DNA from: a virus
Lineage: Duplodnaviria > Caudoviricetes
Direction: 5' to 3' (one strand)
IMG/VR virus record: IMGVR_UViG_3300024228_000015
Location: 1 to 31,952 of that record
Length of the DNA stretch: 31,952 bases
In this document: piece by piece, positions 10,551 to 31,952 of the stretch
Layout: each line of letters starts with the position of its first letter
How positions within the stretch are numbered: position 1 is the stretch's first letter
Position numbers and translations under genes: made by a program
Notes under the pieces: generated by a model
Database searches by the model: none
What the model was told of the DNA's origin: nothing
Seen by the model: the letters and a program-made list of their open reading frames with translations, nothing else

Positions 10551-10582
10551 TAATATAAGAAAAATAATTCTAAATATCAACT
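10551..10582 (-). promoter_or_regulatory. Bacteroidota-type promoter AGTTG-N20-TATATTA upstream of primase
   Basis: Second copy, same 20-nt spacing, 25 nt upstream of the ATG at 10525. Confidence 0.7.
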
Positions 10583-13320: not shown

Positions 13321-14022
13321 TTAATCGAAACCTCTATCATCTGAATCTTTCTCAATATCAGATATCTCCTTAGCATTGTGTACTAAGAAATTTGATGCAA
13401 AGTAGTTATCTACCTCTTCAACATCTAAATCACCTGTTTGAACTTCACCGGGTATTTTTTCTCTAGTTTCTATATTGATTAATTCCATATTAAAGTTAAA
13501 GAGTTTGTCTCCTACTACTACTTCTTCTATGTACCTAAAGGAGATAGTGTTATCTCTTTTAATTAATACTGGGTGTTCGTTTGTTATCTTTAATGTGTTA
13601 TTTATACTATAGTGGTTTCCATTTGATCTTAATCGGTTTGCTGTTACGGTTGATACAGTCTTTTCACCAAATACTCTGTAGTGTGTGTACCATTCGGTCC
13701 AGTCTTCCTGTGCTCCTAATCCTTCTATGTTAAAAGAGACTACCCTATCCCCTACTACTACATCTTCGATTGGTTTTTGAGTTCCGTCTGCCATTTCTAT
13801 TAAAGTACCATACACTAAACATCCTAAATCAGTCCCATCATCATCATCATCAACAGATCCTCCTGATTTACCGCGTAAATCATCAAAGCCTATTTCTCCG
13901 GAAGTTCTCTGTGCTAATGTTCGTATATCACTATCGTTTAAGCTACACTGTGTGTTAGAAGTCCCTCCTGCTTCTACATGTATAGCATTTATAGTTATTG
14001 CTCCTGTTGATGATAATGCCAT
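13321..14022 (-). CDS. Putative fibre-tip (adhesin-anchor) module fused to a Hint domain
   Basis: About 53-aa N-terminal module MALSSTGAITI...SLNDSDIR...FDDLRGKS, then a poly-Asp linker, then Hint (C68 LVYGT, TNEHP, LVHN-A); directly follows the S74-bearing fibre gene. Confidence 0.8.
   Translation of the reverse strand: MALSSTGAITINAIHVEAGGTSNTQCSLNDSDIRTLAQRTSGEIGFDDLRGKSGGSVDDDDDGTDLGCLVYGTLIEMADGTQKPIEDVVVGDRVVSFNIEGLGAQEDWTEWYTHYRVFGEKTVSTVTANRLRSNGNHYSINNTLKITNEHPVLIKRDNTISFRYIEEVVVGDKLFNFNMELINIETREKIPGEVQTGDLDVEEVDNYFASNFLVHNAKEISDIEKDSDDRGFD
13375..13821 (-). other. Hint domain 1 (Cys1, TxxH, terminal HN, +1 Ala)
   Basis: CLVYGTLIEMADG...IEDVVVGD; ITNEHPV; NYFASNFLVHN. Confidence 0.9.
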
Positions 14023-14028
14023 AGCTTT

Positions 14029-17000
14029 TTAGTTCTTAGTTTCAAGCTTTTTTTCAAGTTCAATTACTTTTGCTGATAGTTCTTTTATTGCTTCTGTTAG
14101 TACCGCTACTGTTGCTGCGTAATCTATAGTTTTAGTATCTTTATATTCTTCTGTAATAATTTCAGATGAAGATACTAATTCTGGTATATGTTTTTCAAAG
14201 TCCTGAGCTATAAAACCTATTGAGCTTCCTAAATCTTTATTATTCCAATCAAAAGAAACTCCTTGAAGTTTTAGTACCTTATCTAGAGCACCTTTAAGTG
14301 GTTTAACATTGTGCTTTAATCTCTTATCAGATGCATTCCCTGTGGTAAATGCTGTTATGTTATTTGCTGCTGCTATTCTATACGCATATATATCCTTATA
14401 TCTATATGTTGTAGAGCCTATATCAAAACCTGTGGTAGTACTTGTGCTTGTAGTGTTCGGTCTAATTGCATCGGTTGCTAAGGTACCTCCTTTAGTCTGT
14501 AGTATTACTGATGCAGCAGTTGCATTACTATCTAGCCTTTCTGCTCTTACGTACTTATCAGCATCAGATACAATCTGTAGCCCTCCTGCTTTTAGTTCTA
14601 CAAAATTACTTGGTACTGCTAATCCTAACTGTGTATCAAATCCAGTTACACTGGTAAATGTAGCTGCTTGATTTGCGCCGACAGTATGTTTTCTTTCAGT
14701 ATATGTTACAGAGTTCGAGTTCGACACTGTGACAGATCTTCCTGAACCGGTTATTACCTTCCATTTATACCTAAAGTGTATAGTTCCTGCTTCTGATACG
14801 TTTATTATCTTTTCAGCGTTAGTAACTGCAGAATTAGATGTTGTAGATGCACTAGAACCAGCAAATGTAGCATCTACCCAAGTATAACCGTAACTAGGGT
14901 TATGGTGTATTATACTGTTTGCAATGTAGTTAAATTTATCTGGTATTTCATATGAGTGTACCTCTAATTCTTCTTTTACTAACTCTCTCTTATCAACAGT
15001 CTTAAGTTCTACTCCATTTCCTGTGTCAATATAGATTTGTGTTATTCCTGTGTCTATTTTCTCTGTCGGTATAATATGTCCTCCGTCGGTCCAGAAGTTA
15101 TGGTTATAAGTTACTCTGATATTCTTACCTCCTGCTTCTACGAGCCAGTGCTCGTTAACTGTTCTTGTATTTATACCGGCTGGTGTTACTCCTATAAATT
15201 TAGAAGTTTCTTCATCCCAGACTTTCAGTTTATCTTGTCTGTTTATATTTTTTGCAAGTTTAGTTGAACCGTCTATAAGTGTTACTAAAGCGTTAGAATC
15301 TACAGAAGTGAAATCAAATTCAAACTGCTCCGGGGTATTTGAGGAGTTAGTTCCAGAAGATATTTTATATGTAAATGATGAAGTTCTTCCTATCGCAGTA
15401 GATGATCCTAGTAGAGTAGACCCTATTTCGTCATTCCCACTGTTGAATGCACATAAGTATAATTCTGTTATGGTAACTGCTGCTGTTGGTCTAATAAATC
15501 CGTGTTTCTGGGATGATGTTGATGGTACGTAGTTAGGGTCTGCAACTGATACTGTTGGTGTTGTATGTGTACCTACTTTTGCTGTAAATGCTGGTATATT
15601 TAAAGTGACTGTATAATCTCCTGCTGATGTTGCATTAAATGTATCTGCGTCTTTAGGTCCTAGTATACTCCCTGATGCTACTCCAAAATATTGCTTTGCT
15701 CTGAAAGCTGTATTGTCGGTAGAAAAGAGGAAGGGTATAGAACCTGTTGATGCAAAAGAAGACCAATAGTTACCTGTGGAACCTATAGCATCTATATTAA
15801 CATTTACTGCCCCTCCAGCAGTACTAGTCAGATCTCCTAAGGGAGAGATGATAACTTTTTTATCGGCACCTACATACATCTGTATTTCAGGTATATTTGG
15901 TTCAAATACTATTTCACCATCTTCATCTCTTAATGCGTTGGTACTTTCATCAATTACCCAATCTCCAATTCTACCAGATGTTGCTGTGATTTCTCCTGAT
16001 ATTGATGCATCTGATGCTGTCATGTACCCTTCTGCAGATACCGAGAATAACGGTAGTTCTTGGGTTGGGATGGATAGTGACCCTCCTTCAAGAGTACCTC
16101 CTGTAATAACCCCACCTTCTATGTTTGTACCTCTAATTAAACTACCCGTTACACCGGCAGCTGTTACTATTCCCTTGAATGATGCCGATCCTTCGTTATT
16201 AATAAAAAATTCTTTAGCATGTATACTACCTGCTGAATGTAGAGTTAATCCAGATTCTGCAAAGCCGTTTGTTACTGTTTTAGTTCCTGAGAATATAGCG
16301 TCTTGGTCTATGGTCCATCCTCCTGCTGACCCTGATGTTATATCTTCTGTTGCTGTGTATGTAACTTCTATTTCTCTTAATGTAGCTCCATCAGTACTTG
16401 TTGAGAAGATTTTTATAGTATTACTTCCTTGATTTACTTTAATGTTATCGAAGTAGGTATTTAAAGTATTATCTGCTCCTCCTACATCTGTTCTACTTAA
16501 CCTTGTGCGTAGTTGTCTACCGTTTACTGTTGCTTGTACACCTGAGTAGTTAGGTTCTCTTTTAATTGATGGTTCAAATACATAAGCATCAAAACGTCCT
16601 GAGTTTTCAGAGAGTACCATTCTTACTGGAAGAGTATCATCACCTTTTGGTGCAGCGATTTCATGGTAAGTCCAAACATCTGTTAATGTTATAGCTTTGT
16701 CAGCAAAGACTCTATAATCATTTCCGAGTCGTTGTCCACGCATTTTCATTGTACCGGTCCCTTTAAACCACCCTGATATTAGGAATGATTCTCTTTCAGT
16801 ATTTGAGGTTATACCGTTTGATGCTACGTATTGACCTTCGACGGTTGTCTGTATCCTAGTAGCTCTGGTTCCTTCTTTTTTATCTTCTTGATCTAAAGTA
16901 AGTGTTGGATATGAAGTACTTGTTGAAGGTCTACCTTTAAACCATCCATTTCCGTGTTCTATAACCTGGGTTGCTAATGTTTCTGCTCCTGTAAAAATCC

Positions 17001-20000
17001 CTGCTGCTTCTGCGTCTGCAATTACTAATTTTAACTTAGCAGTTCCTTCTTTATCAGATTCAAAATCGTATTCAAGAATATCATTTGTAGGTGTATTTGG
17101 AGCAATTCCTTGTGATCCTGTAAAGTAAAATAGTTCTGAGGTTACTACATTTTCATTAAGTGTATTAGCCTCTGATAATGTAGTATTACCTACCTGTAAT
17201 GAACCTCTAAATGCTGCTGTACCGTCCTTGTTAATATAGAAATTAGGTGAGTGGATAGATCCTTGGTAATTCATTACTATACCGCCATTAGCAGCGGTAT
17301 ACCCACTTTGATTTTGAGTAGTATTAGCAGTATTACCGGAGTTAATATTGTAGCTACTAATGTTCCATCCTGCTATTGTACCGTCAGTTGCTGCTGCTGT
17401 AGCTCGCATAGTTGCGGTTGTTATATTGTCAACGTTCCCTAAACCTATAGTATCTGCTGTGTTGCTTGAATTTAATGTATTAGCTGCGGTTAAATCTGTA
17501 TTACCTATACTTACTGTTCCTGAAAAGTTAGCGTTACCGTCTATGATAGAAAATTCTTCACTTATTAAATCTCCTGTATCTAAATTAAATTGAGTTCCTG
17601 CTGCTGAATAAGTTCCTGATGTATAGTTGTAGTTGGTTGATTCTATCTTACCAGTTGTTACCATTTCTCCAGTTATAGAGGTAACTTGCATATAGTGTGC
17701 TTCTATTGCAGGGTCAGTCCTAAGTAAGAAATTGGTTAAATTCAATGATGCTGAAGGTATTACTCCTCCGTAGTTAGAGAATGTAGCACCGTTGGTTGGT
17801 GCTTGTATTCCGTACATATTAGCACTAACTAATCTTCCTCCTCTTGGGTTAGTGGCTATAAAACTTACTACTCCTCCTCCACTATTTGATGTATAAACAT
17901 CGTTACTAAGAGTGAGTGTAGTCGATGACCCTTTTAGAGAAAATGGATGTACAATCGTTCCACCACCGGGTGACTTTTTTAACTGTGTAATTAATCTTCC
18001 AGAATCAGATGAAGTGTTTATACCTACGTTTGCATTTGCACTAATACCTGCTAAGATTGGGTGAGAAGCTGGTAATCCCTGATTAGCTGCTGAGTAGCCC
18101 ATCATCCAACCTATACCAGTACCATTAGCAGTTGCTGCAATTGGCCATTCTGTATTATAAGATCCTGTATAATTCCCTACATTGGTATCATTACCTACTA
18201 CTAGTACAGATTTACCTAAATCAAATAAGTTAAGTGCTAATTGTATTTCTGATCCATTTAATCCCCAATTTCTTTCATCAAATACGTATAAGTCATAATC
18301 ATGTGAATCAAATCCGTCTATGTCTGCTGGGTTAGTGTTGTTGGAGGCGTAGCCGTTATCGTCGTAGTACCAAGTACTCTCATTACCGCCAGTGTATCCT
18401 AGTGATTCTGATATATATGTTAATGTGCCACTTGCTGTTGTTCCTGCACTACCGGTTGATACTAAAATTATATTGTAATCAGATTTATTCTTAGTAGAAG
18501 GAGTTGCAAAAGTATCTGGGTTTGTTACTTCAATATTTCCTTTTACATTTAATGTTGTTCCGTCCCAACTTAAGCTAGGTGCTGCTGATCCTCCTAATTT
18601 AAAAGTTCCTGCATCTAAATCTAATCGAGAACCATTTGCTGTTCCCCAATTGGTTGATTGTATTCCTCCTGTCTGTATACCGTTACCTGAAATCCTTGTT
18701 GACATCCCGAGAGTCTTTCCTCCTGACATTCTACTAAATAGTAGGTTATTTGTTGTACCGGAATTGTGTATTGCTGCTCCCGGCCTAACATATCTTTCAG
18801 TTATTGCATCATTATTTCCAGTCTGTGGATTCGTTACTACTTGTGAATCGTATGTTACGTACGGTGAAGTAAAGTCTCCATCTTTAAATATTTTGTATAC
18901 AGCTCCAGTAGGTTTTAGCTGGATGCTAATTCTAAATAACGTAGGGGTATTAGTCGTCCATGCACTATATGCAAGGGCTCCTCTGGGCTTAGCATCTTCG
19001 TAAGCGTATATATTACCATTATAGAAGTAAATAGCGTGGCTAAGGTTGCCATAGCTAAATGTATTAGCACCCTCTTCAAATAACCCTATCATAGTTCTAG
19101 GGTTGTAATCAGATGTTACAATATCCCATTCAAATATACCTCCATCTTTTCTATCAAATAATGCTTTTGTATGAAAGCCTTCATCCCAGCTATTATTATT
19201 ATTATTGAATTCATTTCCAAATACAGGTGATGCATAACTAGTAGTTGTTGTAATACTAGAGTCAAATAAGTTTGTATCTAAAGAACCGCTAAAGTTATAT
19301 TCAAATGAAGGACCTACTCCTGGGTTACCTATTGATAGACTTTGACCGTTCCATACTAAGCCATCATCTCCAGAACCTGATAGCATAAACAGTCCAGATG
19401 ATGACATGAAAGTTAAGAACTGAGTTCCGTCATGAAATCCAAATGCATCAAAGCTTGTATAGAGTCCTGCTGTTTCAGGAGGTGTTGGAAGAGAGGCGAG
19501 TGACATCTGTGCATCTGGTCCAAAGTTGTATGTAGCGGGGTTTACCATTGAGCTGGTTGCTGCAATGAGGGTTGCTATTGAACCTGTTGCTGCATCTGCA
19601 GTACTTTGAGCTGTGAGTATTGATCCTGTTATTGCGGTAACTGCTGTATCCGCATACGTCTGTAAAGAACCTGTTGCAGTATTTAGTGCTGCTGTAGCAG
19701 ATGCTTCTGCTGCAGTTTGTGCTGCTGATGAAGATGATGATGCTTCAAGAGATGCACTAGTTGCTGCATCATTTGCTGCACTAGCGCTTGCAAATGCTGC
19801 TAAGAATAAATCTGCTGATGATGATTGTTCTGCTTCTAATTCTGCTTGTGATGCAAAATCACCAGGGTTAGTAACGTTTATTTCTCCACTAATTGTAAGT
19901 GCTTGAGTTGATGCATTCCATACTAGTTTATCTCCTAATGAAAAGTTACTTGATGAGTCTAAATAGAATCCAGTATCCGCATCACTATGAGTTCCTTCTC

Positions 20001-23000
20001 CATTGTATAATTTAGAATCTTCTAAAGTTATTCCTCCTATTTCTCCTGCTCTAGCAATTATTGTTCCATCAACTGTTAGTTCATCATTAGTCCATGCTAA
20101 TCCGCTATTATTACTTCCTGTTAAAAAGAATTCTCCACTACCAGACATATATGTTTTCCAAGATCCTGAGTTATAGAATCCTAATCTGTCTGCGTTATAG
20201 TATAATCCGTAACCATCTCCAGGAGGTGTAGGATTATATGCAATTTTACCATCTACATCTACTGATCTTGATAATGCTGCGGATGCTGATAATGCTGCTT
20301 GTAGTGCTGCTTGGGAGGCGCCTTGGGCTGCTGCAATTGCTAAAGATGCTGATGCATTACTTTCTGCGGATGCTGACTCTTGTGCTTCTGTTAGTGCTGT
20401 ACTTGCATCATCTACACTACCTGTTACATAGTCTTGAGTTGCTGCATTTCCTCCTAGTATGTTTACTTCTCCTGAAATGACTAGTGCTCCTCCGTCCCAT
20501 TTTAAATAATTAGTTTCACTTCCTGTTAAGAAAAAGTTACCATTATTTGCCATGAATGTTTGGAAAGCACTTCCAGAGTAGTAACCCATTGCTGTAGGAC
20601 CTGTGTATAGTCCTTCTAGGTTTGGATCTGTAGGTCTTACTATTCTACCAGTTGAGTCTGTAAATGTATTTAACGATGCTGTCCCAACAGAGTCTGTTAT
20701 AAGTTGAGACTGATCGTATGTTGTATCTGAAGCTGCTACCCATTCGCTTGCACTGTAAATATGTATTGCATTTCCGTCATTTGAGTCAATCCACATATCA
20801 CCGTCAAGTCTACTTTCAGTAGCAGGAGCATTATCTTGTCTAAATATAGAGTTTAGTCCTTCTTGAACTAATGAAAGTGATGCATTGGTTACTGCTTGAT
20901 TTGCAAATGCTGCATTTGATGCTGATATTGATGCTGATAATGCTGTATCTAAGCTGTCTGTTTGTTGATCTGTATAATTTTCGGAAGCACTTAATGAAGC
21001 AGAATAAGCTGCATCTGCTGCTGCTATTCCACTGTCTGCTGCTGCTGCTGCGGATGCTGATGCGAATAACTCTGCTGCGGTTTGTGCTGCTTCTAGTGAT
21101 GATGTTGTTGCTACGTTACCTGCTGTGACATTTATTTCTCCTGAAATTTTTAATGTTCCTCCATCCCAAGTTAAAGATTCTCCTTGATCACTTCCTGTTA
21201 AGTAGAAGTTTCCGTTATTAGCCATGTAGGTCTTCCATTCACTTTCGGAATAAAAACCTAATGCTTCATCTCCTAAGTACAATCCTGCTGATGCCGTATC
21301 CGGTGTTCTTACTATTCTACCAGATGAGTCTGTAAATATGTCTAAAGATACATTATCTATTGCTCCTGATATCTCGCTTAGTTGATTGTAGGTTTCATCT
21401 GGAGTTGTTGCCCATCCTGTTTCGTCTCCTGACCATATCTTTACAGCGTTTCCTTCGTCACTATCTATCCACATATCTCCTATAGTACCTGATGCGGTAT
21501 AAGGTGCTTCTGCTTGTCTAAATATAGCCGATTTTCCAGCTAGTACTAAGTTTGCTGATTCTAACCCTGATTGTAGTGTAGCTGTTGATGAGCTAATTGA
21601 TCCTGAGAGTGAAGCAGAGACTTGTGATATTATAGCTAAAGAAGCTGATTCTGCTACTGCTGCAGATGCTGATGCTGCATTTGTCGCATAATCTTGGGTT
21701 GCTGCGTTCCCTGATGTGATGTTTATTGCTCCTGCTATCTCTAATGTTCCGGTCGATGAATCCCATGCTAATTTATTACCTTCAGAACCTGTTAAGAAGA
21801 AATCTCCTTGGTTGTCCATATAGGTTTTCCATTCTCCATCTTTATAGAACCCTAAGTTCGTAGAAGCTAAATAAAGTCCTTCAGCTGATGCTGTTGGCGG
21901 TCTTACTGCTCTACCTGCACTATCCGTAAATATTTTTCCATCTAAAGTACTAGTAGTATTCTCTACTGATGCTGAAAATGCTGCGTCTGATGCTGATATT
22001 TCTGTTCCTAGAGAGCCTGATAATGAGCTTGTTGCTGCATTAAGTTCTTCAGTGTTTACACCACTACCTCCTGTTATATCTATATTACCTTTTATATTGA
22101 GGGTTGTTCCATCCCAGTATATGTAATTTGCACCTGTTGTTCCTGTTCCTACCCTAAACTTACCGTTACCATCTAAGTATACTCCTGTTCCAGTAGTACT
22201 TGTCATGTTACCGGCATTCGTACCTGCTGCTAAGGTTCCATTGTTTAATGAACTTGAAATTATAAAAGTAGAAGTATCTAAAGTAAATGTTTCAGTATTA
22301 ATAACTAAATTACCATCTGTGAAGTTATCTAATGATATGAAGTTATTAGCGCCTCCTACTTTCCAAGCACCGTCAGTATACCAGTAGTTATTATTATTTA
22401 CAAATATACCGTCGTTGAAAGCTCCTGTTGTGCCTGATACTTTTCTACCTATAGATATTTTTTGACCTGTTTCTAATCCTCCTGCTACTGTAGCTACATG
22501 AAGTATACCTGCTATAGATCCTGTTTCAGCTGTTATAGCTCCTTTAAAAAATCCATTTTCAGTGTATAAGCCAAAACCTGGTTCATTATTACCGTATAAG
22601 TAACCTGAAGCTAATCCTGAAAGGTCTCCTAATCTAGATCTTAACTGTAAATCGTATGCTCCTGATCCTGTTCTTTCTACAATATCCATATAAGGAGTAG
22701 AAACATCTCTAGGATTAGCATTCATCATTATATACCCAGATGATATATCTTGAGATGGATTAAATACTCCTGTTGAAACTAATACTTGCCCTTCATTATA
22801 GGGTTTCGCTGTTGAAACTAGCCCTGATAAGAATTCTGCGTCTAAGTCTATTAAGTAAACTGTATCTCCGTTAACATGGGAATCTGCTTCTGTATCATGG
22901 TAATCTCTTATAACAGTTAAAACATTACTACTAATTGCTGTTACCTTTAATCTTTCATTCCCTATCTTTATAATATTCTGTACTCCAAGACCGGATGAAT

Positions 23001-24996
23001 CGGTTACATTGACACTAGTCTCTCCTGTGGTTGATATATCTGCTGATAAAGTTGTAATAGATGCTGATACTGCTGGTGTACCTCCGTATGCTCTTTCTAC
23101 GTACAACTCTCCTGCTAAACCGTCTGGATCTATTGAACCTGTATTTCCTGTTATGGATGAATCTTCTGAGTATCTTTTTGATCCTGATACATACACATAT
23201 TCTACGCTAAAACCAGCATCGTTGACTGATTTAATTTTAAGTATTTCTCCTTCAGAAAAACCTGAAGTATTAGCAACTGAAAATGTTACGGCATTTGCTG
23301 CGTATGATGAAGACCCTGCTAAGATTACACCGTCTGTATCTTTTAATGGTTGTATTGTAGTAGCGTTAGCGACCATTAGTTGTCCACCGACTACGTTTAC
23401 AGTTTCTTTTTCGAATACTGTTGTGCTGAGTGTCCCTCTAATTCGCATATTTTCAAACTCTGCTGAACCGTTTCCGATTGTGTCTATTCTCCAACCTTTT
23501 AGATTAGAAACAAAATTAGATGATTCTAATTTTCCGTCTGAATGTATTATTAGTCCTGTCTCGTCTTCACCGTAGTTTTCTCCGAAGCCTGCTGTAGGTA
23601 TTGTTCTAATTTGAGAATCAGTTATTTCCCAACCACCAATCTTATTACCCTGTTGACCGAACATTGCTATGGTATTAGCACTGCCAGTCCCTGCTCCGTT
23701 ATATATCTTTATACCGTAAAGATCATCTGCTGCATCTGATATTTCTCCTAGTCTTATTATTTCTGCAGAAGCAGTATCGAATATGTTTAACCTTTGAGTG
23801 GTTGTATCAATATTAAAATAAGTTGTGTCTAACTTAAAATTATCTGTCTTAATATCAACACCAGTGGTTGTGTTAAACCTAACATAGTTATTAGCATCCT
23901 TAGTCAGATCCAGCGTTGGTACAGTGTTATCCATACCTATTATTACACCAGCAGCATCAGTTCCAAAGCCGGTTTTTGCACCTGCCACGATCATCGCATC
24001 TAAAGCGCTACCTGATATCTTAAATACATTTGTTTCTCCTACTTCAATAGCAGAAGAAGCTCCCAACAGTTTTACACTTCCGTTACCAAGAGACATAGAT
24101 GCTTCTGTGGAAGATATTTCTATATTAGATGCTGAGATTTCTAGTAATGAAGTTGAGAGGCTTACGTTACTCCCGTCAAACTTTACAAAACTACTTGTTG
24201 CATCCCCTACATAAAATCTAGGGGTACCTTCATTATACTCTAACTGAATACCTTTATTGCCGAACGTACTGTCATTGAAAGTTATACTTCCTGCATTTGC
24301 ATCTATTACTACGTTAGTAGATTTCTTTATCTGTGTATTAGTTATTTCCCATCCAGCAATTTTACCTCCGGAGAACATTACTGCTGATCCTGTTATATCT
24401 CCGTTACCTTTTAAATTAAAATTTGAAGCAGAAATAAAATGATCTGTTGGTCCTGCAGCACCGGATATAAAGAAGGAAGGTATGCCTAGGGTTTCAGGTC
24501 CATGTATGGCGTTAGGTGTGATACTGAATCCTCCTATGAGTCCGGAGGATGCTGTTATATCTCCTTCGATGATTGCTCCAGAAGCGTGTAAGAAGCCGCT
24601 AGAGGAGATAGCGAAGTTAGATCCAAAATGTACGTAATATGGAGCAGTCACTGCTGGATCAAAGTCTATGTACCATTCGTCAGAAGATAGATTTCCTCCA
24701 TCTGAATTCATAGCTTTATTTTTATCGTAGAATTGCCCGTTAAACAGGTCGATTATCATCCTACTACCAGTTATCTGGCTGTCAGCTATATATACATCTC
24801 CGATTGATCCTCCGTTTTCTTGAAAGTCAGCAAATGCTTCTCCACCGATAGGTACAGTCGCAGTTGTTCCGTCTTTCCTTTGAAGAATTAATTGATTTTC
24901 AGCGAAGGACGCTGTATAGAAGAATGATCTAAAATTTTCATCTAATTCTTCATGTGTTAGAGGTGCTCCTTTCTCGTCTCTAAATGTTAAACCCAT
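14029..24996 (-). CDS. Giant tail fibre / receptor-binding protein (3655 aa) with internal repeats, embedded Hint domain and C-terminal S74 chaperone
   Basis: Gly/Ser/Thr-rich beta repeats, Ala/Ser helical linkers, probable lectin/CBM-like domains; SDKRLK...GFIAQ...coiled-coil end. Confidence 0.9.
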   Translation of the reverse strand: MGLTFRDEKGAPLTHEELDENFRSFFYTASFAENQLILQRKDGTTATVPIGGEAFADFQENGGSIGDVYIADSQITGSRMIIDLFNGQFYDKNKAMNSDGGNLSSDEWYIDFDPAVTAPYYVHFGSNFAISSSGFLHASGAIIEGDITASSGLIGGFSITPNAIHGPETLGIPSFFISGAAGPTDHFISASNFNLKGNGDITGSAVMFSGGKIAGWEITNTQIKKSTNVVIDANAGSITFNDSTFGNKGIQLEYNEGTPRFYVGDATSSFVKFDGSNVSLSTSLLEISASNIEISSTEASMSLGNGSVKLLGASSAIEVGETNVFKISGSALDAMIVAGAKTGFGTDAAGVIIGMDNTVPTLDLTKDANNYVRFNTTTGVDIKTDNFKLDTTYFNIDTTTQRLNIFDTASAEIIRLGEISDAADDLYGIKIYNGAGTGSANTIAMFGQQGNKIGGWEITDSQIRTIPTAGFGENYGEDETGLIIHSDGKLESSNFVSNLKGWRIDTIGNGSAEFENMRIRGTLSTTVFEKETVNVVGGQLMVANATTIQPLKDTDGVILAGSSSYAANAVTFSVANTSGFSEGEILKIKSVNDAGFSVEYVYVSGSKRYSEDSSITGNTGSIDPDGLAGELYVERAYGGTPAVSASITTLSADISTTGETSVNVTDSSGLGVQNIIKIGNERLKVTAISSNVLTVIRDYHDTEADSHVNGDTVYLIDLDAEFLSGLVSTAKPYNEGQVLVSTGVFNPSQDISSGYIMMNANPRDVSTPYMDIVERTGSGAYDLQLRSRLGDLSGLASGYLYGNNEPGFGLYTENGFFKGAITAETGSIAGILHVATVAGGLETGQKISIGRKVSGTTGAFNDGIFVNNNNYWYTDGAWKVGGANNFISLDNFTDGNLVINTETFTLDTSTFIISSSLNNGTLAAGTNAGNMTSTTGTGVYLDGNGKFRVGTGTTGANYIYWDGTTLNIKGNIDITGGSGVNTEELNAATSSLSGSLGTEISASDAAFSASVENTTSTLDGKIFTDSAGRAVRPPTASAEGLYLASTNLGFYKDGEWKTYMDNQGDFFLTGSEGNKLAWDSSTGTLEIAGAINITSGNAATQDYATNAASASAAVAESASLAIISQVSASLSGSISSSTATLQSGLESANLVLAGKSAIFRQAEAPYTASGTIGDMWIDSDEGNAVKIWSGDETGWATTPDETYNQLSEISGAIDNVSLDIFTDSSGRIVRTPDTASAGLYLGDEALGFYSESEWKTYMANNGNFYLTGSDQGESLTWDGGTLKISGEINVTAGNVATTSSLEAAQTAAELFASASAAAAADSGIAAADAAYSASLSASENYTDQQTDSLDTALSASISASNAAFANQAVTNASLSLVQEGLNSIFRQDNAPATESRLDGDMWIDSNDGNAIHIYSASEWVAASDTTYDQSQLITDSVGTASLNTFTDSTGRIVRPTDPNLEGLYTGPTAMGYYSGSAFQTFMANNGNFFLTGSETNYLKWDGGALVISGEVNILGGNAATQDYVTGSVDDASTALTEAQESASAESNASASLAIAAAQGASQAALQAALSASAALSRSVDVDGKIAYNPTPPGDGYGLYYNADRLGFYNSGSWKTYMSGSGEFFLTGSNNSGLAWTNDELTVDGTIIARAGEIGGITLEDSKLYNGEGTHSDADTGFYLDSSSNFSLGDKLVWNASTQALTISGEINVTNPGDFASQAELEAEQSSSADLFLAAFASASAANDAATSASLEASSSSSAAQTAAEASATAALNTATGSLQTYADTAVTAITGSILTAQSTADAATGSIATLIAATSSMVNPATYNFGPDAQMSLASLPTPPETAGLYTSFDAFGFHDGTQFLTFMSSSGLFMLSGSGDDGLVWNGQSLSIGNPGVGPSFEYNFSGSLDTNLFDSSITTTTSYASPVFGNEFNNNNNSWDEGFHTKALFDRKDGGIFEWDIVTSDYNPRTMIGLFEEGANTFSYGNLSHAIYFYNGNIYAYEDAKPRGALAYSAWTTNTPTLFRISIQLKPTGAVYKIFKDGDFTSPYVTYDSQVVTNPQTGNNDAITERYVRPGAAIHNSGTTNNLLFSRMSGGKTLGMSTRISGNGIQTGGIQSTNWGTANGSRLDLDAGTFKLGGSAAPSLSWDGTTLNVKGNIEVTNPDTFATPSTKNKSDYNIILVSTGSAGTTASGTLTYISESLGYTGGNESTWYYDDNGYASNNTNPADIDGFDSHDYDLYVFDERNWGLNGSEIQLALNLFDLGKSVLVVGNDTNVGNYTGSYNTEWPIAATANGTGIGWMMGYSAANQGLPASHPILAGISANANVGINTSSDSGRLITQLKKSPGGGTIVHPFSLKGSSTTLTLSNDVYTSNSGGGVVSFIATNPRGGRLVSANMYGIQAPTNGATFSNYGGVIPSASLNLTNFLLRTDPAIEAHYMQVTSITGEMVTTGKIESTNYNYTSGTYSAAGTQFNLDTGDLISEEFSIIDGNANFSGTVSIGNTDLTAANTLNSSNTADTIGLGNVDNITTATMRATAAATDGTIAGWNISSYNINSGNTANTTQNQSGYTAANGGIVMNYQGSIHSPNFYINKDGTAAFRGSLQVGNTTLSEANTLNENVVTSELFYFTGSQGIAPNTPTNDILEYDFESDKEGTAKLKLVIADAEAAGIFTGAETLATQVIEHGNGWFKGRPSTSTSYPTLTLDQEDKKEGTRATRIQTTVEGQYVASNGITSNTERESFLISGWFKGTGTMKMRGQRLGNDYRVFADKAITLTDVWTYHEIAAPKGDDTLPVRMVLSENSGRFDAYVFEPSIKREPNYSGVQATVNGRQLRTRLSRTDVGGADNTLNTYFDNIKVNQGSNTIKIFSTSTDGATLREIEVTYTATEDITSGSAGGWTIDQDAIFSGTKTVTNGFAESGLTLHSAGSIHAKEFFINNEGSASFKGIVTAAGVTGSLIRGTNIEGGVITGGTLEGGSLSIPTQELPLFSVSAEGYMTASDASISGEITATSGRIGDWVIDESTNALRDEDGEIVFEPNIPEIQMYVGADKKVIISPLGDLTSTAGGAVNVNIDAIGSTGNYWSSFASTGSIPFLFSTDNTAFRAKQYFGVASGSILGPKDADTFNATSAGDYTVTLNIPAFTAKVGTHTTPTVSVADPNYVPSTSSQKHGFIRPTAAVTITELYLCAFNSGNDEIGSTLLGSSTAIGRTSSFTYKISSGTNSSNTPEQFEFDFTSVDSNALVTLIDGSTKLAKNINRQDKLKVWDEETSKFIGVTPAGINTRTVNEHWLVEAGGKNIRVTYNHNFWTDGGHIIPTEKIDTGITQIYIDTGNGVELKTVDKRELVKEELEVHSYEIPDKFNYIANSIIHHNPSYGYTWVDATFAGSSASTTSNSAVTNAEKIINVSEAGTIHFRYKWKVITGSGRSVTVSNSNSVTYTERKHTVGANQAATFTSVTGFDTQLGLAVPSNFVELKAGGLQIVSDADKYVRAERLDSNATAASVILQTKGGTLATDAIRPNTTSTSTTTGFDIGSTTYRYKDIYAYRIAAANNITAFTTGNASDKRLKHNVKPLKGALDKVLKLQGVSFDWNNKDLGSSIGFIAQDFEKHIPELVSSSEIITEEYKDTKTIDYAATVAVLTEAIKELSAKVIELEKKLETKN
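14032..14331 (-). other. Peptidase S74 intramolecular chaperone (auto-cleaving) domain
   Basis: SDKRLKHNV, FDW, IGFIAQD, IDY and EAIKEL motifs. Confidence 0.9.
14899..15306 (-). other. Hint domain 2 (Ser1, TxxH, terminal HN, +1 Pro) inside the giant fibre
   Basis: SVDSNALVTLIDG...; VTYNHNF; NYIANSIIHHN-P; 136 aa. Confidence 0.8.
19330..21933 (-). repeat. Five diverged ~60-80-aa protein repeats within the fibre
   Basis: Consensus GLY....[LMF]G[FY][YH]....[WF].T[YF]M...G.F.L[TS]GS....L.W....L.[IV].G; plus two copies of IFRQ..AP......GDMWIDS..GNA. Boundaries approximate. Confidence 0.8.
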
Positions 24997-25012
24997 AGTA
25001 CGTTCCCTTTAT

Positions 25013-25020
25013 TATAAATA
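25013..25020 (-). promoter_or_regulatory. Putative late promoter motif TATTTATA
   Basis: Intergenic, 16 nt upstream of the giant fibre ATG. Confidence 0.65.
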
Positions 25021-25036
25021 CGCTCTAATTCTCGAA

Positions 25037-26683: not shown

Positions 26684-26685
26684 GG

Positions 26686-27741: not shown

Positions 27742-27744
27742 TCA

Positions 27745-28761
27745 TTAATAGTCAAGTTTGATTCGTATTAGAGCTTCCTTAGTAAAATCCTTTAGTAAAG
27801 GTTTTGATAATTTAGCTACTCCTAATAGATCATTGTTATCATTATATAGTCCTACAGATGTTACGTAAGCTTGTGGATTATTAACCATTGAATTGTGTCT
27901 TATCTCTCCTGAACCTGTTACATTAGAAGGGTTAGATGAATAGTTAAATTCACTATTTCGTACCCTTACAAAAACATAATTTGAAGATATTGTTTCTTCT
28001 GAGTTCAGTTTAAAACTACCTCCTCTTTCAATTGCTTGGTAGAGTAACCTGTTATTAAATCCGTTTTCGTCTGCAGAACCAGATTTAATTTCAAAGCCTG
28101 CGGAAATATTTTCCTGTAATGCCTGTACATTTAAAAGTATTATACCTACGTCAGGTAAAAATTTTCCGTAAGAAGCTATATACCCGGTCTGAGCGGTGTA
28201 ACCTGTTCCTAAGTCATGAGAAACGCCGTTTGAACCTGAGATTACCTCGTATACTCTTCCTACATCGTTGTATGTTACAGTTGAGCTTAATCCACTATTA
28301 TCTGTAAGATCAAGAGTTTCGGAACTACCCTCTAATCTGAGATTAAATGTACCTGGTAGTAACTTTTCTTTGTACCTTGCTCTGTTCACTGAAATTGCAA
28401 AGAAACCTTTTGTACCTGTATTACCTCCGTATAGAAAAGTGGATTCTTCATCTCCTAGTACTAATGATCTGAATTGTCCATATATAGTTGATGTTGGAGA
28501 TTTCCCGGCTACGTTTGTATTATAGGCTGTAGCTCCTAAGCCATCCTCTGATCCGTACGCTATTGAGTATTGAACTGCAGCAGCAGTAGAGTCTGATGAT
28601 GTTTGATATACATTTAAATAATAATCACCGCTTGTTGCTGCTTCTTGTGTTGATGATGTTTCAAAGCTATCTAATTCATAAGTGTCAGTAGACCATACTG
28701 TAGATGATACAGAGTCTGCACTTACTATTACGTCTTCATTATCGAATTTTTTAAATGACAT
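27745..28761 (-). CDS. Putative baseplate/tail structural protein (paralogue of neighbour)
   Basis: MSFKKF vs MSAYKKL; SEFN motif; TSVGLYNDNNDLLGVAK; both end in KLD[YI]. Confidence 0.65.
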   Translation of the reverse strand: MSFKKFDNEDVIVSADSVSSTVWSTDTYELDSFETSSTQEAATSGDYYLNVYQTSSDSTAAAVQYSIAYGSEDGLGATAYNTNVAGKSPTSTIYGQFRSLVLGDEESTFLYGGNTGTKGFFAISVNRARYKEKLLPGTFNLRLEGSSETLDLTDNSGLSSTVTYNDVGRVYEVISGSNGVSHDLGTGYTAQTGYIASYGKFLPDVGIILLNVQALQENISAGFEIKSGSADENGFNNRLLYQAIERGGSFKLNSEETISSNYVFVRVRNSEFNYSSNPSNVTGSGEIRHNSMVNNPQAYVTSVGLYNDNNDLLGVAKLSKPLLKDFTKEALIRIKLDY

Positions 28762-28767
28762 ATCTTA

Positions 28768-29427
28768 TTAAGTTGTTTTCGTTATTGTAATTGGAATAGT
28801 AACTCTTGCTCCACTATCTCTACCGATTATAGTAATCGTACTAGTAAGTGATGTTGCGTTAGATCCATACAGAGTGTTTATTGTTGTACCGGTGATATTG
28901 ATAGATGTACCGATTACTGCTTTTGATACATTTGTACCAAGTGTGGTAGTTGAATTAAGTCTATCTGCTTCTGATGAGGTTACACCTACTCCGGTAAAGT
29001 TTGACAGTAAGCGTACATCTGCTATTGTTGCAGAATAACCGTTAGTTTCATATGCTTGAGTAGCTCCTAAATAGTTAAGAGTTTGCGGTGTGATAGTTAG
29101 AGAGGCACCTTGTTTTAATGTAATAGATGCAAATCCTGCTTCTAGTATTGGTAGCTTAGCTGTACCTCTTGGAAGTGTAGCAAGCTTGTATTTCATTACT
29201 TGATTTTCATCTGGGAATGCTTCTAGGAGTGGCATATTTTCTATAGCTTCTCCAAAGAAAGCTGAACCTGACGGATGAGCGGTGTTATATAGAGTGTAGT
29301 CTATTTCATCATCTGATAATGCAAATTGAGTAATTCTAAAGGAACCGTCTCCTCGAGCGAGTAATTCACGTCCTTTTTTTGTTAATATTGCGTCTACTGT
29401 GACGACTGAGTTGTTTAGGTATCCCAT
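28768..29427 (-). CDS. Putative baseplate/tail structural protein
   Basis: AILTKKGRELLA...FRITQFALSD motif, Thr-rich beta C-terminal domain; TATTTATA upstream. Confidence 0.65.
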   Translation of the reverse strand: MGYLNNSVVTVDAILTKKGRELLARGDGSFRITQFALSDDEIDYTLYNTAHPSGSAFFGEAIENMPLLEAFPDENQVMKYKLATLPRGTAKLPILEAGFASITLKQGASLTITPQTLNYLGATQAYETNGYSATIADVRLLSNFTGVGVTSSEADRLNSTTTLGTNVSKAVIGTSINITGTTINTLYGSNATSLTSTITIIGRDSGARVTIPITITKTT

Positions 29428-29447
29428 GTTCTAACTTTTATATATAT

Positions 29448-29455
29448 TATAAATA
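29448..29455 (-). promoter_or_regulatory. Putative late promoter motif TATTTATA
   Basis: Intergenic, 20 nt upstream of the ATG at 29427. Confidence 0.65.
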
Positions 29456-29472
29456 TGTAGCTTTTTAATATT

Positions 29473-31233
29473 CTATGCTGATGATGAAGAAGAATCCGAT
29501 GATGACTCAGACGATGATGATGATTGTGTAGAAACTACACATTCAGTTTTAACTGAATCTACAAATCCTTTATCATTTGTTGATATTATTGAATTAGTTT
29601 CTTTTAACCATACTAAATGTCTCCCTACTGGTTTAATTCTATTAGCAGTTGAGGTATATAATCTTGATCCTCCAATTCTTCTTACTTGTGTTCCTGCAGC
29701 TTGTGCTGCTATTGTCGTACTATCGTACCCTCTTTCTACCATTACTTTTATATACTGACTATATAGTACTAGTTCTTGACTGAAAGGGTTAAGTTGTTTT
29801 CTGTTATGATTTACGTTTAACACCTGTACTTTTTCACCTGAGTCTAGTACCAGAATATCTCCCGGTGTTACCAATGTACCTGGTATAGGGTTTAATCGGA
29901 AAGTATTATCTGTCCCTACGTTAGTCAGTACATCAGGATTTGAAATTGTTCCTACTAGTCCTTCTCCAATAGTAGGTTGAGTTCCTTTTCCGTCAAATAG
30001 TAGATTCTGCATATCCCTCTCTGCTAACGGAATATTACATATTCTTTCTAACTCTGTTGCTACCCCACTAAAAGGGTAGAGTGCTGCTTCTATTGTCATT
30101 CCTGCTATTGCAGGTGATATCCCACTAAAATCTGCTTCGGATGTTTTTGTTCCGTTATACCTAGCATTAATTAAACCTGTATCTGTGTAGTTTGAATCTT
30201 GAACGGATGCAGGTTGAGCGTAGGGTTCTTGAATACCTCTAACGGCTGATAGTGTTAAGAACCTATCTAATTCTCCAAAAAAAGTTCCGATATAAACTAA
30301 AGGTTGTCCGTTTGAGCTATTATGTGTTACTTTCTGTTTTAATCTTACATGTAAATCATCTGTAGATGTTGTAAATGTTTCGTTGACTGGTGCTCCTGAT
30401 TTTATAGTTTCTACTACTCCTGAGTTATAAGTCTGTGTTAGTAGTGTTTTTGTAACGTTTGGAGTTCCGGAAGTATTAGAGGTGTGAAAAATTTCTAGTA
30501 ATAACTGTATTGTAAAATTTGCATAGTTATTAGAGTTTTGATAGAATGATGGTTCTATCCTGATTACAGACGGTACCGGTATGTCAAAGGTATTATCTAA
30601 GTCAGCTAATGTAAATACGATATTTGCACCTCCTTCTCTATTTAGAGACCTTACTGGTGATGTTATTGTGTTTATTACAGATAGTGCGGGTTGACTACTT
30701 ATTTGGTATCCGAACTCTTTTTTAAATGCTGAATCGCCTTCCTGGTGAAACAGTGTTAGATCTACTTGTGGGTTACCTAGTAATGCGTCAAAATTGTCAG
30801 GTTGTATCCCTCCACTCACCCTGTCTACATCGTACCTAATTCTATTAGTTCTTGTATTTTCTGCATTACTAATTAATGCATTATACTGGTTATTAAAGAA
30901 AGGTTCTATTAAAAACGGGTCTACAGCTATTTCTGAGTTGGTGGTGCTTACGCTGTTATTAATTATAGTATCCTGGTTATTAAGAAAAAAGTAACCAGTC
31001 TTATCACTAATATCTATTATATTTAAAGTTGTGTTTTCTCCGCTGCTGGAAATGGGAAGTAGTATTTTATTTATCTCAGATAAAGATGGAACTATTCTAG
31101 TACCTTCAAGGTCTACGTCTGAGATCGTTAGAGATTTAACTGTAACAAATCCTGTTCCGCTTTCTGTTTGTACTAATACTCTAATTTCTCCATCCGTTGG
31201 GGCAGTGTTTGAAAAGACTCCTTGACTTGGCAT
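29473..31233 (-). CDS. Hypothetical virion structural protein (586 aa) with Ser-rich C-terminal tail
   Basis: Beta-rich composition, tail-module context, TATTTATA upstream; no catalytic motif seen. Confidence 0.65.
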   Translation of the reverse strand: MPSQGVFSNTAPTDGEIRVLVQTESGTGFVTVKSLTISDVDLEGTRIVPSLSEINKILLPISSSGENTTLNIIDISDKTGYFFLNNQDTIINNSVSTTNSEIAVDPFLIEPFFNNQYNALISNAENTRTNRIRYDVDRVSGGIQPDNFDALLGNPQVDLTLFHQEGDSAFKKEFGYQISSQPALSVINTITSPVRSLNREGGANIVFTLADLDNTFDIPVPSVIRIEPSFYQNSNNYANFTIQLLLEIFHTSNTSGTPNVTKTLLTQTYNSGVVETIKSGAPVNETFTTSTDDLHVRLKQKVTHNSSNGQPLVYIGTFFGELDRFLTLSAVRGIQEPYAQPASVQDSNYTDTGLINARYNGTKTSEADFSGISPAIAGMTIEAALYPFSGVATELERICNIPLAERDMQNLLFDGKGTQPTIGEGLVGTISNPDVLTNVGTDNTFRLNPIPGTLVTPGDILVLDSGEKVQVLNVNHNRKQLNPFSQELVLYSQYIKVMVERGYDSTTIAAQAAGTQVRRIGGSRLYTSTANRIKPVGRHLVWLKETNSIISTNDKGFVDSVKTECVVSTQSSSSSESSSDSSSSSA

Positions 31234-31247
31234 AATCTACTTTTTTA

Positions 31248-31255
31248 TATAAATA
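31248..31255 (-). promoter_or_regulatory. Putative late promoter motif TATTTATA
   Basis: Intergenic, 14 nt upstream of the ATG at 31233. Confidence 0.65.
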
Positions 31256-31262
31256 TCTACTA

Positions 31263-31952
31263 TTAATTATAATATTTAACGTTATGAGACAGTATCCCGT
31301 TGCTTATGTATGTATGAGCTTTTTCAACCGTTAACTTAACTACTGGTCCATCCTCTGCTTCTTCTACTCCTAAGACCTCGTAACCTGTTGTTATGTCTCC
31401 TACTTCTAAGGAATTTGCTGCTATAAATTCTGATTTATTATCTACATATACTCTATGTCCTGGGCTGCATATTAGTTCTCTGTCGCTATATACTATTTTT
31501 ACTTTTTCACTTTTATCTTGTAGCTGTGCTCTAGTTACGATACAGCTTAGTAATTCTAAAGTAGTTTCATGTTTTGTTCTAACTATATCACCTGTTTTTA
31601 TATCCTTGGCTTTTTTAGTTTTTCCCTGTTCTAATGTAATATCTGTTTCAGGGTCTATACAGTTATTGGCAGGTTGCTGTACAATAGAGATAGAGTCTTT
31701 TACAGTTGTTCCTATACGTAGCGAAATAGTACCATATCTAGTGCTACTGGTATTATTTGCTGAAGCGTACCAGGTTCTTGATCCGTTACCTGTCCCCATT
31801 GCGCTAGAAAGGGTTATCCAGGATATACCTTCGTAAAGGTTCCAGCTTGTATTTGATGATATGGATAAGGTACCATTGGTGGCGTAACCGCTTGCGTTAA
31901 CTGAAGAGGGAGACATTGTTGCATAGCTTGAGTTAAATATTACTGAATCTGA
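31263..31952 (-). CDS. C-terminal part of a protein with a BACON-like domain followed by a Hint domain (probably 5'-truncated by the window)
   Basis: Frame stays open from 31916 to the right edge (SDSVIFNSSYAT). SNTSW...SWITL...GTGNG...N...R.GTI...Q matches the BACON pattern; then CIDPET...SPGH...LSHN-V. Confidence 0.8.
   Translation of the reverse strand, partial: SDSVIFNSSYATMSPSSVNASGYATNGTLSISSNTSWNLYEGISWITLSSAMGTGNGSRTWYASANNTSSTRYGTISLRIGTTVKDSISIVQQPANNCIDPETDITLEQGKTKKAKDIKTGDIVRTKHETTLELLSCIVTRAQLQDKSEKVKIVYSDRELICSPGHRVYVDNKSEFIAANSLEVGDITTGYEVLGVEEAEDGPVVKLTVEKAHTYISNGILSHNVKYYN
31281..31661 (-). other. Hint domain 3 (Cys1, SxxH, terminal HN, +1 Val)
   Basis: CIDPETDITLEQG...KDIKTGD; CSPGHRV; HTYISNGILSHN; 127 aa. 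Confidence 0.9.

What the first reader, a model, noticed from the sequence alone, without database searches (positions are those of the whole stretch)
13321..31661. Three non-splicing Hint domains on three different tail-module proteins: candidate autoprocessing/ligation system on the virion
Seen: Hint domains at 13375-13821, 14899-15306 and 31281-31661, mutually divergent, 127-149 aa, with no homing endonuclease. Each keeps the N-terminal nucleophile (C, S, C), block-B [TS]xxH and terminal HN, but has Ala, Pro or Val at +1. Known: canonical splicing needs Cys/Ser/Thr at +1. Hedgehog, bacterial intein-like and polymorphic-toxin Hints instead cleave, or transfer the upstream polypeptide to another nucleophile. 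Typical phage inteins sit in DNA-metabolism or packaging enzymes. Inference: domesticated Hints that activate the C-termini of adhesion modules as (thio)esters. Possible uses are covalent capture of a host-surface molecule, cross-linking of fibre parts, attachment of a small molecule, or triggered shedding of tips.
Basis: partly seen in the sequence, partly recalled or inferred. Interest (0 to 1): 0.85.

Follow-up and report, generated by a model that had tools for sequence, protein, structure and literature searches.

The report
Lysine-tailed Hint domains on phage tail
A marine phage carries intein-like (Hint) domains with intact catalytic residues on three tail-region proteins, one predicted to cap the tip of the long fibre, and a conserved lysine just behind two of them suggests these two likely cut themselves out while linking the tail protein to that lysine, an untested reaction.

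Summary
In detail: three divergent (19-28% identical) endonuclease-free Hint domains at the stated coordinates, none with a +1 nucleophile, in an Immutovirus-like myophage. All are under purifying selection (dN/dS 0.04-0.35); the best solved matches are type-A bacterial intein-like domains (2LWY, Tetrahymena BIL2). They are three separate modules, not one shown system. Hint1 ends a gp38-like cap protein predicted to bind the trimeric fibre tip. Hint3 ends a 1545-aa baseplate-region protein cut by the contig end. Hint2 (Ser1, Pro+1) sits on a hairpin inside the fibre. Among the top database hits, Lys occupies +1 or +2 in 190 of 247 nucleophile-less Hints. Best reading: ATP-free thioester-to-lysine (isopeptide) self-excision, as reported for BIL2; untested. 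'Non-splicing' is too strong, and host capture is unsupported. GenBank already labels three tail-module genes of phage NCTB 'intein domain', and this scan noted the family before on other genomes. My ten searches found no paper on it.

The parts
13321..14022 (-). 233-aa fibre-tip cap protein: gp38-type attachment domain, linker, Hint1 and acidic Lys tail
   Evidence: ORF; 23 homologues aligned; gene directly after the S74-bearing fibre
13861..14022 (-). gp38-like N-terminal attachment domain (residues 1-54)
   Evidence: Atlas structure match to PF05268 GP38, TM 0.85; predicted to bind fibre residues 3546-3553 of all three chains, score 0.82 against best control 0.01
13822..13860 (-). variable Gly/Ser/Asp-rich linker ending in Gly(-1)
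   Evidence: -1 is Gly in 19 of 28 Hint1-clade clusters
13375..13821 (-). Hint1 (Cys1, block-B His150, His215-Asn216)
   Evidence: dN/dS 0.13 and 0.12 against L110 and L111
13324..13374 (-). 17-aa tail, Ala+1, Lys+2 and conserved Lys225 (+9)
   Evidence: K225 conserved in at least 90% of 23; Lys in +4..+10 in 27 of 28 clusters
14029..24996 (-). 3655-aa long tail fibre with C-terminal S74 chaperone, host of Hint2
   Evidence: Pfam Peptidase_S74 E 2.8e-15 at 3556-3608; PHROG long tail fibre distal subunit
14899..15306 (-). Hint2 (Ser1, His3299, His3365-Asn3366, Pro+1) on a flexible loop between two strands of a beta-rich domain
   Evidence: present in 10 of 10 orthologous fibres examined; dN/dS 0.13 and 0.32
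14647..15669 (-). beta-rich domain (about residues 3110-3450) interrupted by Hint2
   Evidence: AlphaFold model: strands flank a low-confidence linker (108-118) and the Hint; pairing of these strands as a hairpin is inferred
14032..14331 (-). S74 intramolecular chaperone; its cleavage would expose the tip that the cap protein is predicted to bind
   Evidence: cleavage site inferred from the Ser-Asp-x-Arg-Leu-Lys start of the Pfam match
31263..31952 (-). C-terminal end of a 1545-aa baseplate-region protein (orthologue of immuto gp109), cut by the contig end
   Evidence: P0068 228/229 identical; synteny with baseplate genes gp112-113 of NC_055915; orthologues
31674..31847 (-). BACON-like domain directly before Hint3
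   Evidence: Pfam BACON E 7e-4; BACON in 9 of 17 orthologues
31281..31661 (-). Hint3 (Cys1, block-B His, His-Asn)
   Evidence: dN/dS 0.04-0.35 over 12 pairs
31266..31280 (-). 5-aa tail, Val+1 and Lys+2
   Evidence: Lys+2 in 18 of 18 clade clusters, +1 takes 7 different residues; often the last residue of the protein

Best explanation
These are three separate, selectively maintained Hint domains of the type-A BIL kind on host-recognition parts of the tail, and the two terminal Cys1 domains (Hint1, Hint3) likely act as single-use, ATP-free transpeptidases that link the upstream tail domain to a conserved tail lysine while cutting themselves out. Inferred steps: (1) N-to-S shift at the Gly-rich junction makes a C-terminal thioester; (2) the epsilon-amine of the tail Lys, standing in for the missing Cys/Ser/Thr+1, attacks it and forms an isopeptide; (3) Asn cyclisation frees the Hint and leaves the fibre-tip cap or baseplate arm capped by a short isopeptide-linked peptide. 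The purpose would be maturation of the adhesion tips (a removable shield, cleanly quenched). Hint2 (Ser1, Pro+1, no Lys) probably does something else: at most it nicks the fibre at its N-terminal junction and stays attached. Shown: fold, residues, selection, lysine conservation. Predicted: tip binding. Not shown: any reaction.
For: Cys1, His and Asn are invariant in 23 of 23 Hint1 proteins and His-Asn in 30 of 30 aligned Hints. dN/dS is 0.04-0.35. In loci not selected on the tail: Lys+2 in 18 of 18 Hint3-clade clusters, Lys at +4..+10 in 27 of 28 Hint1-clade clusters, and Lys within +10 in 58 of 60 Cys1 against 0 of 13 Ser1 Hints. Among the top 150 of 36,672 database hits, +1 is Lys in 157 of 299 intact Hints, and Lys is at +1 or +2 in 190 of 247 that lack C/S/T, against 5.7% background and 2-4% at +3..+8; 34 of 38 tails of 12 aa or less carry it, while 9% of 151 control ORFs end in Lys. 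True Cys+1 inteins: Lys+2 in 0 of 18. Keeping His-Asn before a tail of one or two residues makes sense if that tail gets ligated (inference). The closest solved relatives are 2LWY and BIL2; BIL2 is reported by its authors to form a Lys isopeptide bond (PMC8616854 section 2.4, passages). The Hint3 tree broadly follows a neighbour-gene tree, and 25 of 26 rows of the window's clade keep the Hint.
Against: No biochemistry or virion proteomics exist. The lysine position differs between clades (+1, +2, about +8), which fits a flexible nucleophile but also a charge or docking role; Arg replaces it in 14 of 247 database Hints. A Hint1 subclade (3 of 23, plus L009 and L010) has lost the block-B His and the block-F Asp yet keeps Cys1, His-Asn and Lys. 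Pro+1 occurs in 6 of 28 Cys1 Hint1-clade clusters and is thought to hinder Asn cyclisation (recalled). The Cys/Ser-Lys covariation rests on two or three Ser1 lineages, and 11 of the 13 are internal. 68% of control ORF ends hold a Lys in their last nine residues, so the Hint1 signal needs the motif test, whose pattern I chose after seeing the tails (42 of 45, shuffle mean 17). The cultured relative immuto_2-6A has no Hint in the fetched 41 kb, and 5 of 28 gp109 orthologues lack it, so it is dispensable in the wider group. The benefit of an isopeptide cap is not evident. BIL2's acceptor Lys lies in a folded ubiquitin-like domain, not in a short tail.
Confidence: 0.38

Rival explanations
1. Plain self-removal: the Hints are disposable folding or timing caps, like the S74 chaperone. 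They cleave off by thioester hydrolysis and/or Asn cyclisation, as type-A BILs mostly do. The lysine only helps catalysis or docks the tail, and any ligation is a by-product.
For: Cleavage products dominate in type-A BILs (PMC4031507; PMC7664689). The Hints are terminal, behind flexible linkers. Stand-alone 53-61-aa relatives of the cap domain exist, so a Hint-less cap is a plausible mature product. L015 ends just after the BACON domain without a Hint.
Against: N-terminal hydrolysis alone needs neither His-Asn nor Lys, yet both are kept before tails of 1-2 residues. A 54-residue cap has little to chaperone. In eight loci (seven distinct sequences listed) a Hint1-type domain sits directly before an S74 chaperone, which already does that job.
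Confidence: 0.25
2. Latent covalent harpoon: the Hints stay on the virion at the distal tips, and on adsorption the thioester or ester is attacked by a host-surface amine or hydroxyl, which tethers the phage or sheds the tip. The tail lysine gates or activates the site.
For: Hint1 occupies the slot of the receptor-binding domain in a gp38-like protein; relatives carry other domains there. The cap is predicted to bind the fibre tip (0.82 against best control 0.01). Hints also end collagen-like fibres, J-like proteins and BACON arms. Gly at -1 is the commonest residue (87 of 247). BIL2 is reported to modify a substrate in trans.
Against: No adduct-binding domain follows the Hint. An exposed thioester would have to survive in seawater. 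A built-in Lys would compete with the host nucleophile. The Hint is far more conserved than expected for a host-range determinant (dN/dS 0.12-0.13; inference).
Confidence: 0.15
3. Non-catalytic knob: the Hint fold is used as a stable binding or spacer domain, and the conserved residues are structural.
For: A subclade lacks the block-B His and block-F Asp. Block-F position 4 is Ser in Hint2 and Lys in Hint3. Hint2 has Pro+1 in 7 of 11 clusters and no Lys, which fits a retained domain best.
Against: Cys1/Ser1, His and Asn are invariant while neighbouring surface residues vary. The block-B His is invariant in 28 of 28 Hint2- and Hint3-family rows.
Confidence: 0.13
4. Selfish or neutral passengers: self-excising elements spread by domain shuffling among adhesion modules and tolerated because a lysine-linked scar at a terminus or loop is harmless.
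For: Patchy presence (5 of 28 orthologues lack Hint3), three independent lineages in one genome, and tandem arrays of up to seven Hints in unrelated proteins.
Against: No endonuclease. A terminal Hint could be lost by one stop codon, yet 25 of 26 rows in the window's clade keep it under purifying selection. No Hint-free allele of the Hint2 fibre was found. The neighbouring GIY-YIG gene is also present, by synteny and the same PHROG label, in Hint-less immuto.
Confidence: 0.09

Closest known systems
Type A bacterial intein-like (BIL) domains, e.g. Clostridium thermocellum BIL (PDB 2LWY)
   Same: Best sequence-profile and fold match; mini-Hint, terminal His-Asn, no +1 nucleophile, no endonuclease.
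   Different: Here in phage virion proteins, mostly at the C-terminus with a tail of 2-20 aa and a conserved Lys; type-A BIL ligation is described through the freed alpha-amine. Scores are below the PT-HINT cut-off (26.1 against 27.7 bits for Hint3).
Tetrahymena BUBL BIL2 (PDB 6Y75, 6TMM)
   Same: Second-best match (E 3e-15; best for the Hint3 host alignment); reported ATP-independent Lys isopeptide formation (PMC8616854).
   Different: No ubiquitin-like flanks; the candidate acceptor Lys lies in a short tail; zinc activation was not examined.
T-even gp38 adhesin on gp37 (Salmonella phage S16, PDB 6F45)
   Same: N-terminal attachment fold, gene after a chaperone-bearing fibre, predicted 3:1 capping (PMC6851490 and PMC3157838 passages).
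   Different: No tryptophans in the attachment domain, no polyglycine sandwich; a Hint replaces the specificity domain.
Hint-bearing tail proteins of phage NCTB (LT598654, genes 132, 135, 136) and Alexandravirus/Yoloswag-type jumbo phages
   Same: C-terminal Hint after a Gly linker on tail-module proteins, +1 Ala/Thr/Val, Lys in the short tail; same starred clade as Hint1. NCTB also has three.
   Different: Different host proteins; known only as GenBank or PHROG labels, with no mechanism in the papers I searched.
Class 1 phage inteins and Hedgehog Hog domains
   Same: Hint fold, N-terminal Cys/Ser, block-B His.
   Different: Inteins need C/S/T+1 and interrupt enzymes (terminase, helicase). Hedgehog has a sterol-recognition region after the Hint (recalled), which is absent here.

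Membership tests
Class 1 intein | Cys/Ser1, block-B His, terminal His-Asn | tested here: met
Class 1 intein | Cys/Ser/Thr at +1 | tested here: not met
   Ala, Pro, Val here; C/S/T in 3 of 28, 3 of 11 and 1 of 18 orthologue clusters
Class 1 intein | insertion in a conserved site with intein-free alleles | tested here: not met
   Hint1 and Hint3 are terminal; Hint2 is present in 10 of 10 fibres examined
Type A BIL | Hint fold without endonuclease, closest to 2LWY | tested here: met
Type A BIL | C-terminal His-Asn and no +1 nucleophile | tested here: met
   definition from PMC4031507
Type A BIL | passes the PT-HINT (PF07591) curated cut-off | tested here: not met
   Hint3 26.1 against 27.7 bits; Hint1 and Hint2 not listed
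Type A BIL | N- and C-terminal cleavage with some ligation | not testable with these tools
   needs expression
BUBL BIL2 | flanked by ubiquitin-like domains | tested here: not met
   no ubiquitin family hit
BUBL BIL2 | Lys isopeptide formation | not testable with these tools
   only lysine conservation was measured
Hedgehog Hog domain | adduct-recognition region after the Hint (recalled) | tested here: not met
   tails of 17 and 5 aa; Hint2 is followed by a fibre strand
gp38 adhesin | N-terminal attachment-domain fold | tested here: met
   TM 0.85 to PF05268, predicted models on both sides
gp38 adhesin | monomer caps the processed fibre trimer | tested here: inconclusive
   model supports it, 0.82 against 0.01, possibly from likeness to 6F45
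gp38 adhesin | three Trp anchors and a polyglycine-sandwich specificity domain | tested here: not met
   no Trp in residues 1-67; a Hint follows

The most novel reading that the evidence does not exclude
A large class of 'lysine inteins' arms phage host-recognition tips and microbial surface proteins with genetically encoded, ATP-free isopeptide ligases. In this phage the Hint at the fibre tip replaces the receptor-binding domain and covalently staples the virion to an amine on the host surface, or to partner tail proteins, at adsorption.
Probability: 0.15. Interest if true: 0.92.

Novelty: new variant of a known kind. Interest (0 to 1): 0.63.

Why it matters
BIL domains have lacked a clear biological role, and phage inteins are treated as parasites of replication and packaging enzymes. 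This locus shows Hints kept by selection on virion tips and points to a single residue, the tail lysine, that makes the chemistry directly testable. If it is the nucleophile, this is a widespread natural route to isopeptide bonds without ATP or a partner enzyme, a new maturation step in phage tails, and a possible protein-ligation tool. Related cultured phages exist (Alexandravirus, Yoloswag type), so virion-level tests are feasible.

Tried and rejected
Single-sequence AlphaFold of fibre residues 3001-3499 failed (pLDDT 32) and was not used. tblastn of that region against cultured phages found nothing. The GIY-YIG gene at 12783-13262 as a homing partner: rejected, since an equivalent gene lies at the same place in Hint-less immuto. 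Hint2 as a canonical intein: Thr or Ser+1 in only 3 of 11 clusters, Pro in 7, and no empty allele. Loci L056-L103 were fetched with a pattern containing the +2 residue and were left out of all lysine counts. The Hint3 host could not be assigned to a named baseplate family by PHROGs, Pfam or PDB sequence; 'baseplate-region' rests on synteny. Cross-linking of subunits through the tail Lys was considered: if every chain reacts, each upstream domain ends on a short tail or a Hint and no network forms, so I rank it low. The VIA wide fold search was not run, so the fold of the domain that hosts Hint2 is unnamed. The models give no coordinates here, so I could not measure the Lys-to-Cys1 distance. 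Ten literature searches found no paper on Hints in phage tail proteins. The primary BIL, BIL2 and NCTB papers were not seen (not held), and no supplements were read; a mention there cannot be excluded.
Full report
Context. The window is a whole 31,952-nt contig with the real genes on the minus strand. Gene order and protein matches place it with Flavobacterium phage immuto_2-6A (Immutovirus): 56% identity for the 338-aa gene and the same run of baseplate, fibre, GIY-YIG, primase and exonuclease genes. It is thus likely a marine myophage of Bacteroidota; the host is inferred.

Observation. All three Hints are real and lie where stated. Alone they score below the Pfam cut-offs. A profile of 30 relatives hits the C. 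thermocellum BIL (2LWY, E 3e-17) and Tetrahymena BIL2 (3e-15) ahead of every intein. Hint2, the weakest, aligns end to end to a profile built without its family (20.4 bits against 11.4 for the best of 500 shuffles), and a pLDDT-86 model matches 2LWY at TM 0.86. The three are 19-28% identical and fall in separate clades of a quick tree whose deep branches are weak.

Anatomy, Hint1. Residues 1-62 of the 233-aa protein have the fold of the gp38 attachment domain (TM 0.85), and the gene follows the S74-bearing fibre as gene 38 follows gene 37 (PMC6851490, PMC3157838; passages). In two cultured phages the same N-domain also follows an S74-type fibre but carries other C-terminal domains; in a third (nt-1) it heads an FG-GAP protein away from a fibre gene. 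A complex prediction of three fibre ends (3455-3555) with this protein scored 0.82, best of three controls 0.01; the mark was reached by 116 of 157 solved complexes and 2 of 215 mismatches; runs agreed in at least 87% of contacts, partner pLDDT at least 78. Three segments (7-12, 23-29, 42-47) touch residues 3546-3553 of the three chains. Because gp37-gp38 is solved, the pass may reflect likeness. So Hint1 likely sits where a receptor-binding domain normally sits. Against reading too much into that, stand-alone 53-61-aa relatives of the cap exist.

Anatomy, Hint2. It interrupts a beta-rich domain about 190 residues before the S74 site, behind a variable Gly/Ser linker that is low-confidence in the model. 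I examined 7 of the 12 proteins (five had scores identical to one included) plus three loci; 10 of 10 keep it with Ser1 and His-Asn. Across 11 clusters +1 is Pro 7, Thr 2, Val 1, Ser 1, and no Lys follows. No empty allele turned up.

Anatomy, Hint3. The ORF is cut by the contig end; P0068 gives the full 1545-aa protein, an orthologue of immuto gp109 near the baseplate wedge gene. Of 28 orthologue rows, 23 carry the Hint and 5 do not; nine of the 39 loci did not cover that gene end and were left out. A BACON domain precedes it in many.

Selection. dN/dS is 0.04-0.35 for Hint3 over 12 pairs, 0.13 and 0.12 for Hint1, and 0.13 and 0.32 for Hint2, similar to the flanking fibre (0.15-0.24). The Hint3 tree broadly follows the tree of a neighbouring gene, and 25 of 26 rows in the window's clade have the Hint.

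The lysine. In loci fetched without regard to the tail (99 distinct Hints, 73 clusters at 90%), +1 is free, but Lys is at +2 in 18 of 18 Hint3-clade clusters and within +4..+10 in 27 of 28 Hint1-clade clusters; 58 of 60 Cys1 Hints and 0 of 13 Ser1 Hints have Lys within ten residues. The library search found 36,672 proteins at E 0.001 or better. Its top 150 are biased to multi-Hint proteins, whose copies are not independent, and the profile held the +1 and +2 columns, favouring Lys at +2 but not at +1. In them 157 of 299 intact Hints have Lys at +1, the canonical nucleophile position; 190 of 247 without C/S/T have Lys at +1 or +2, against 5.7% background; 34 of 38 short terminal tails have it (my count from the printed list), while 9% of 151 control ORFs end in Lys. 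Outside the query clade 98 of 115 proteins have such a Hint, and 0 of 18 Cys+1 inteins have Lys+2. Hosts include pilin-, PKD-, Tim44- and subtilase-bearing proteins (30-31 of the 150 scanned), so the family is not phage-only.

Mechanism. Type-A BILs can ligate their flanks without a +1 nucleophile, through the freed alpha-amine, though cleavage dominates (PMC4031507, PMC7664689; passages). BIL2 is described by its authors as forming a Lys epsilon-amine isopeptide without ATP (PMC8616854, passages of section 2.4; primary paper not seen). His-Asn and Lys kept before a tail of one or two residues are most simply explained if that tail is joined to the upstream domain. I therefore favour thioester formation, Lys attack and Hint release for Hint1 and Hint3 (0.38), over plain removal (0.25), host capture (0.15), an inert knob (0.13) and selfish passengers (0.09). 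Results against: a Hint1 subclade lacks the block-B His and block-F Asp (block numbering recalled, position read from the alignment to 2LWY); Pro+1 occurs with Lys in 6 of 28 clusters; Arg sometimes replaces Lys; the Ser1 group is only two or three lineages; and the benefit of such a cap is unclear.

Comparison and novelty. It works like a type-A BIL, perhaps like BIL2. It is not a class 1 intein or a Hedgehog domain, and it misses the PT-HINT cut-off. Hints on tail proteins are visible in GenBank: three 'intein domain' genes in the NCTB tail module and a terminal Hint in Alexandravirus, Yoloswag and fHe-Yen9-02 tail proteins. Ten full-text searches gave no paper on them. I also saw passages only of PMC5259590, PMC7412058, PMC7824862, PMC6892783, PMC3556154 and PMC10579305, none of which discusses Hints in tail proteins, and a term search of PMC12014285 gave no hits. 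Earlier notes of this scan describe the same Lys-tailed family on other genomes; these are unchecked AI notes and not independent evidence. New here are the gp38-like tip placement, the Cys1/Lys versus Ser1/no-Lys split, and three architectures in one tail. Verdict: new variant of a known kind, interest 0.63.

Noticed in passing
window 7277-8218, 10570-10998, 11004-11351, 12370-12786 (also weakly 3401-3601, 5347-5937, 11626-12366): Unrelated small genes start with a shared leader of the form M-x(0,1)-K-L-x-[DR]-[ILV]-[IL]-L-x-E, reminiscent of a capsid-targeting sequence with a protease site (resemblance recalled).
   Followed up: no
window 7980-8819: 279-aa ORF with a lipoprotein-like signal and a Tyr/Trp/Asn-rich then Arg-rich body, overlapping the zeta-toxin-like kinase ORF 7277-8218 by 239 nt in another frame; no family hit.
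   Followed up: no
window 12783-13262: SegE-type GIY-YIG gene directly after the Hint1 gene; PHROG and RefSeq label the family 'NAD synthetase', probably wrongly; syntenic in immuto.
   Followed up: partly
L117:1999-6924, L119, L121-L124, L126, L128: Fibres (collagen-like in the two printed) in which a Hint1-type domain with Pro+1 and Lys+2 lies directly before the S74 cleavage site, so two autoprocessing domains are stacked.
   Followed up: partly
P0036, P0042, P0058, P0076, P0108 and others: Tandem arrays of 2-7 Hints joined by 0-6 residues (often Lys-Gly-Gly), the last frequently ending His-Asn-Lys-stop; hosts include pilin-, PKD- and Tim44-like proteins.
   Followed up: partly
L034, L035:713-2509, L036:6581-8089: Hints ending His-Asn-Asp-Arg-stop (Ser1 in L035 and L036; start not covered in L034), next to Cys1 paralogues ending in Lys.
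   Followed up: partly
L029:2421-7487: The Hint3 orthologue is followed by a Gly linker and a further domain of about 130 aa, not identified.
   Followed up: no
window 15280-15306: The start of Hint2 resembles block A of the Ser1 PolB intein of phage MIJ3 as printed in PMC6892783, a lead for a separate intein origin.
   Followed up: no
L002:6744-7205: NCTB gene 135 is a stand-alone Hint with a degenerate N-terminus and Lys at +1.
   Followed up: no
window 2-2737: 912-aa, very acidic, open-ended ORF with repeated Asn/Asp-Glu-type junctions and one PHROG hit of unknown function.
   Followed up: no
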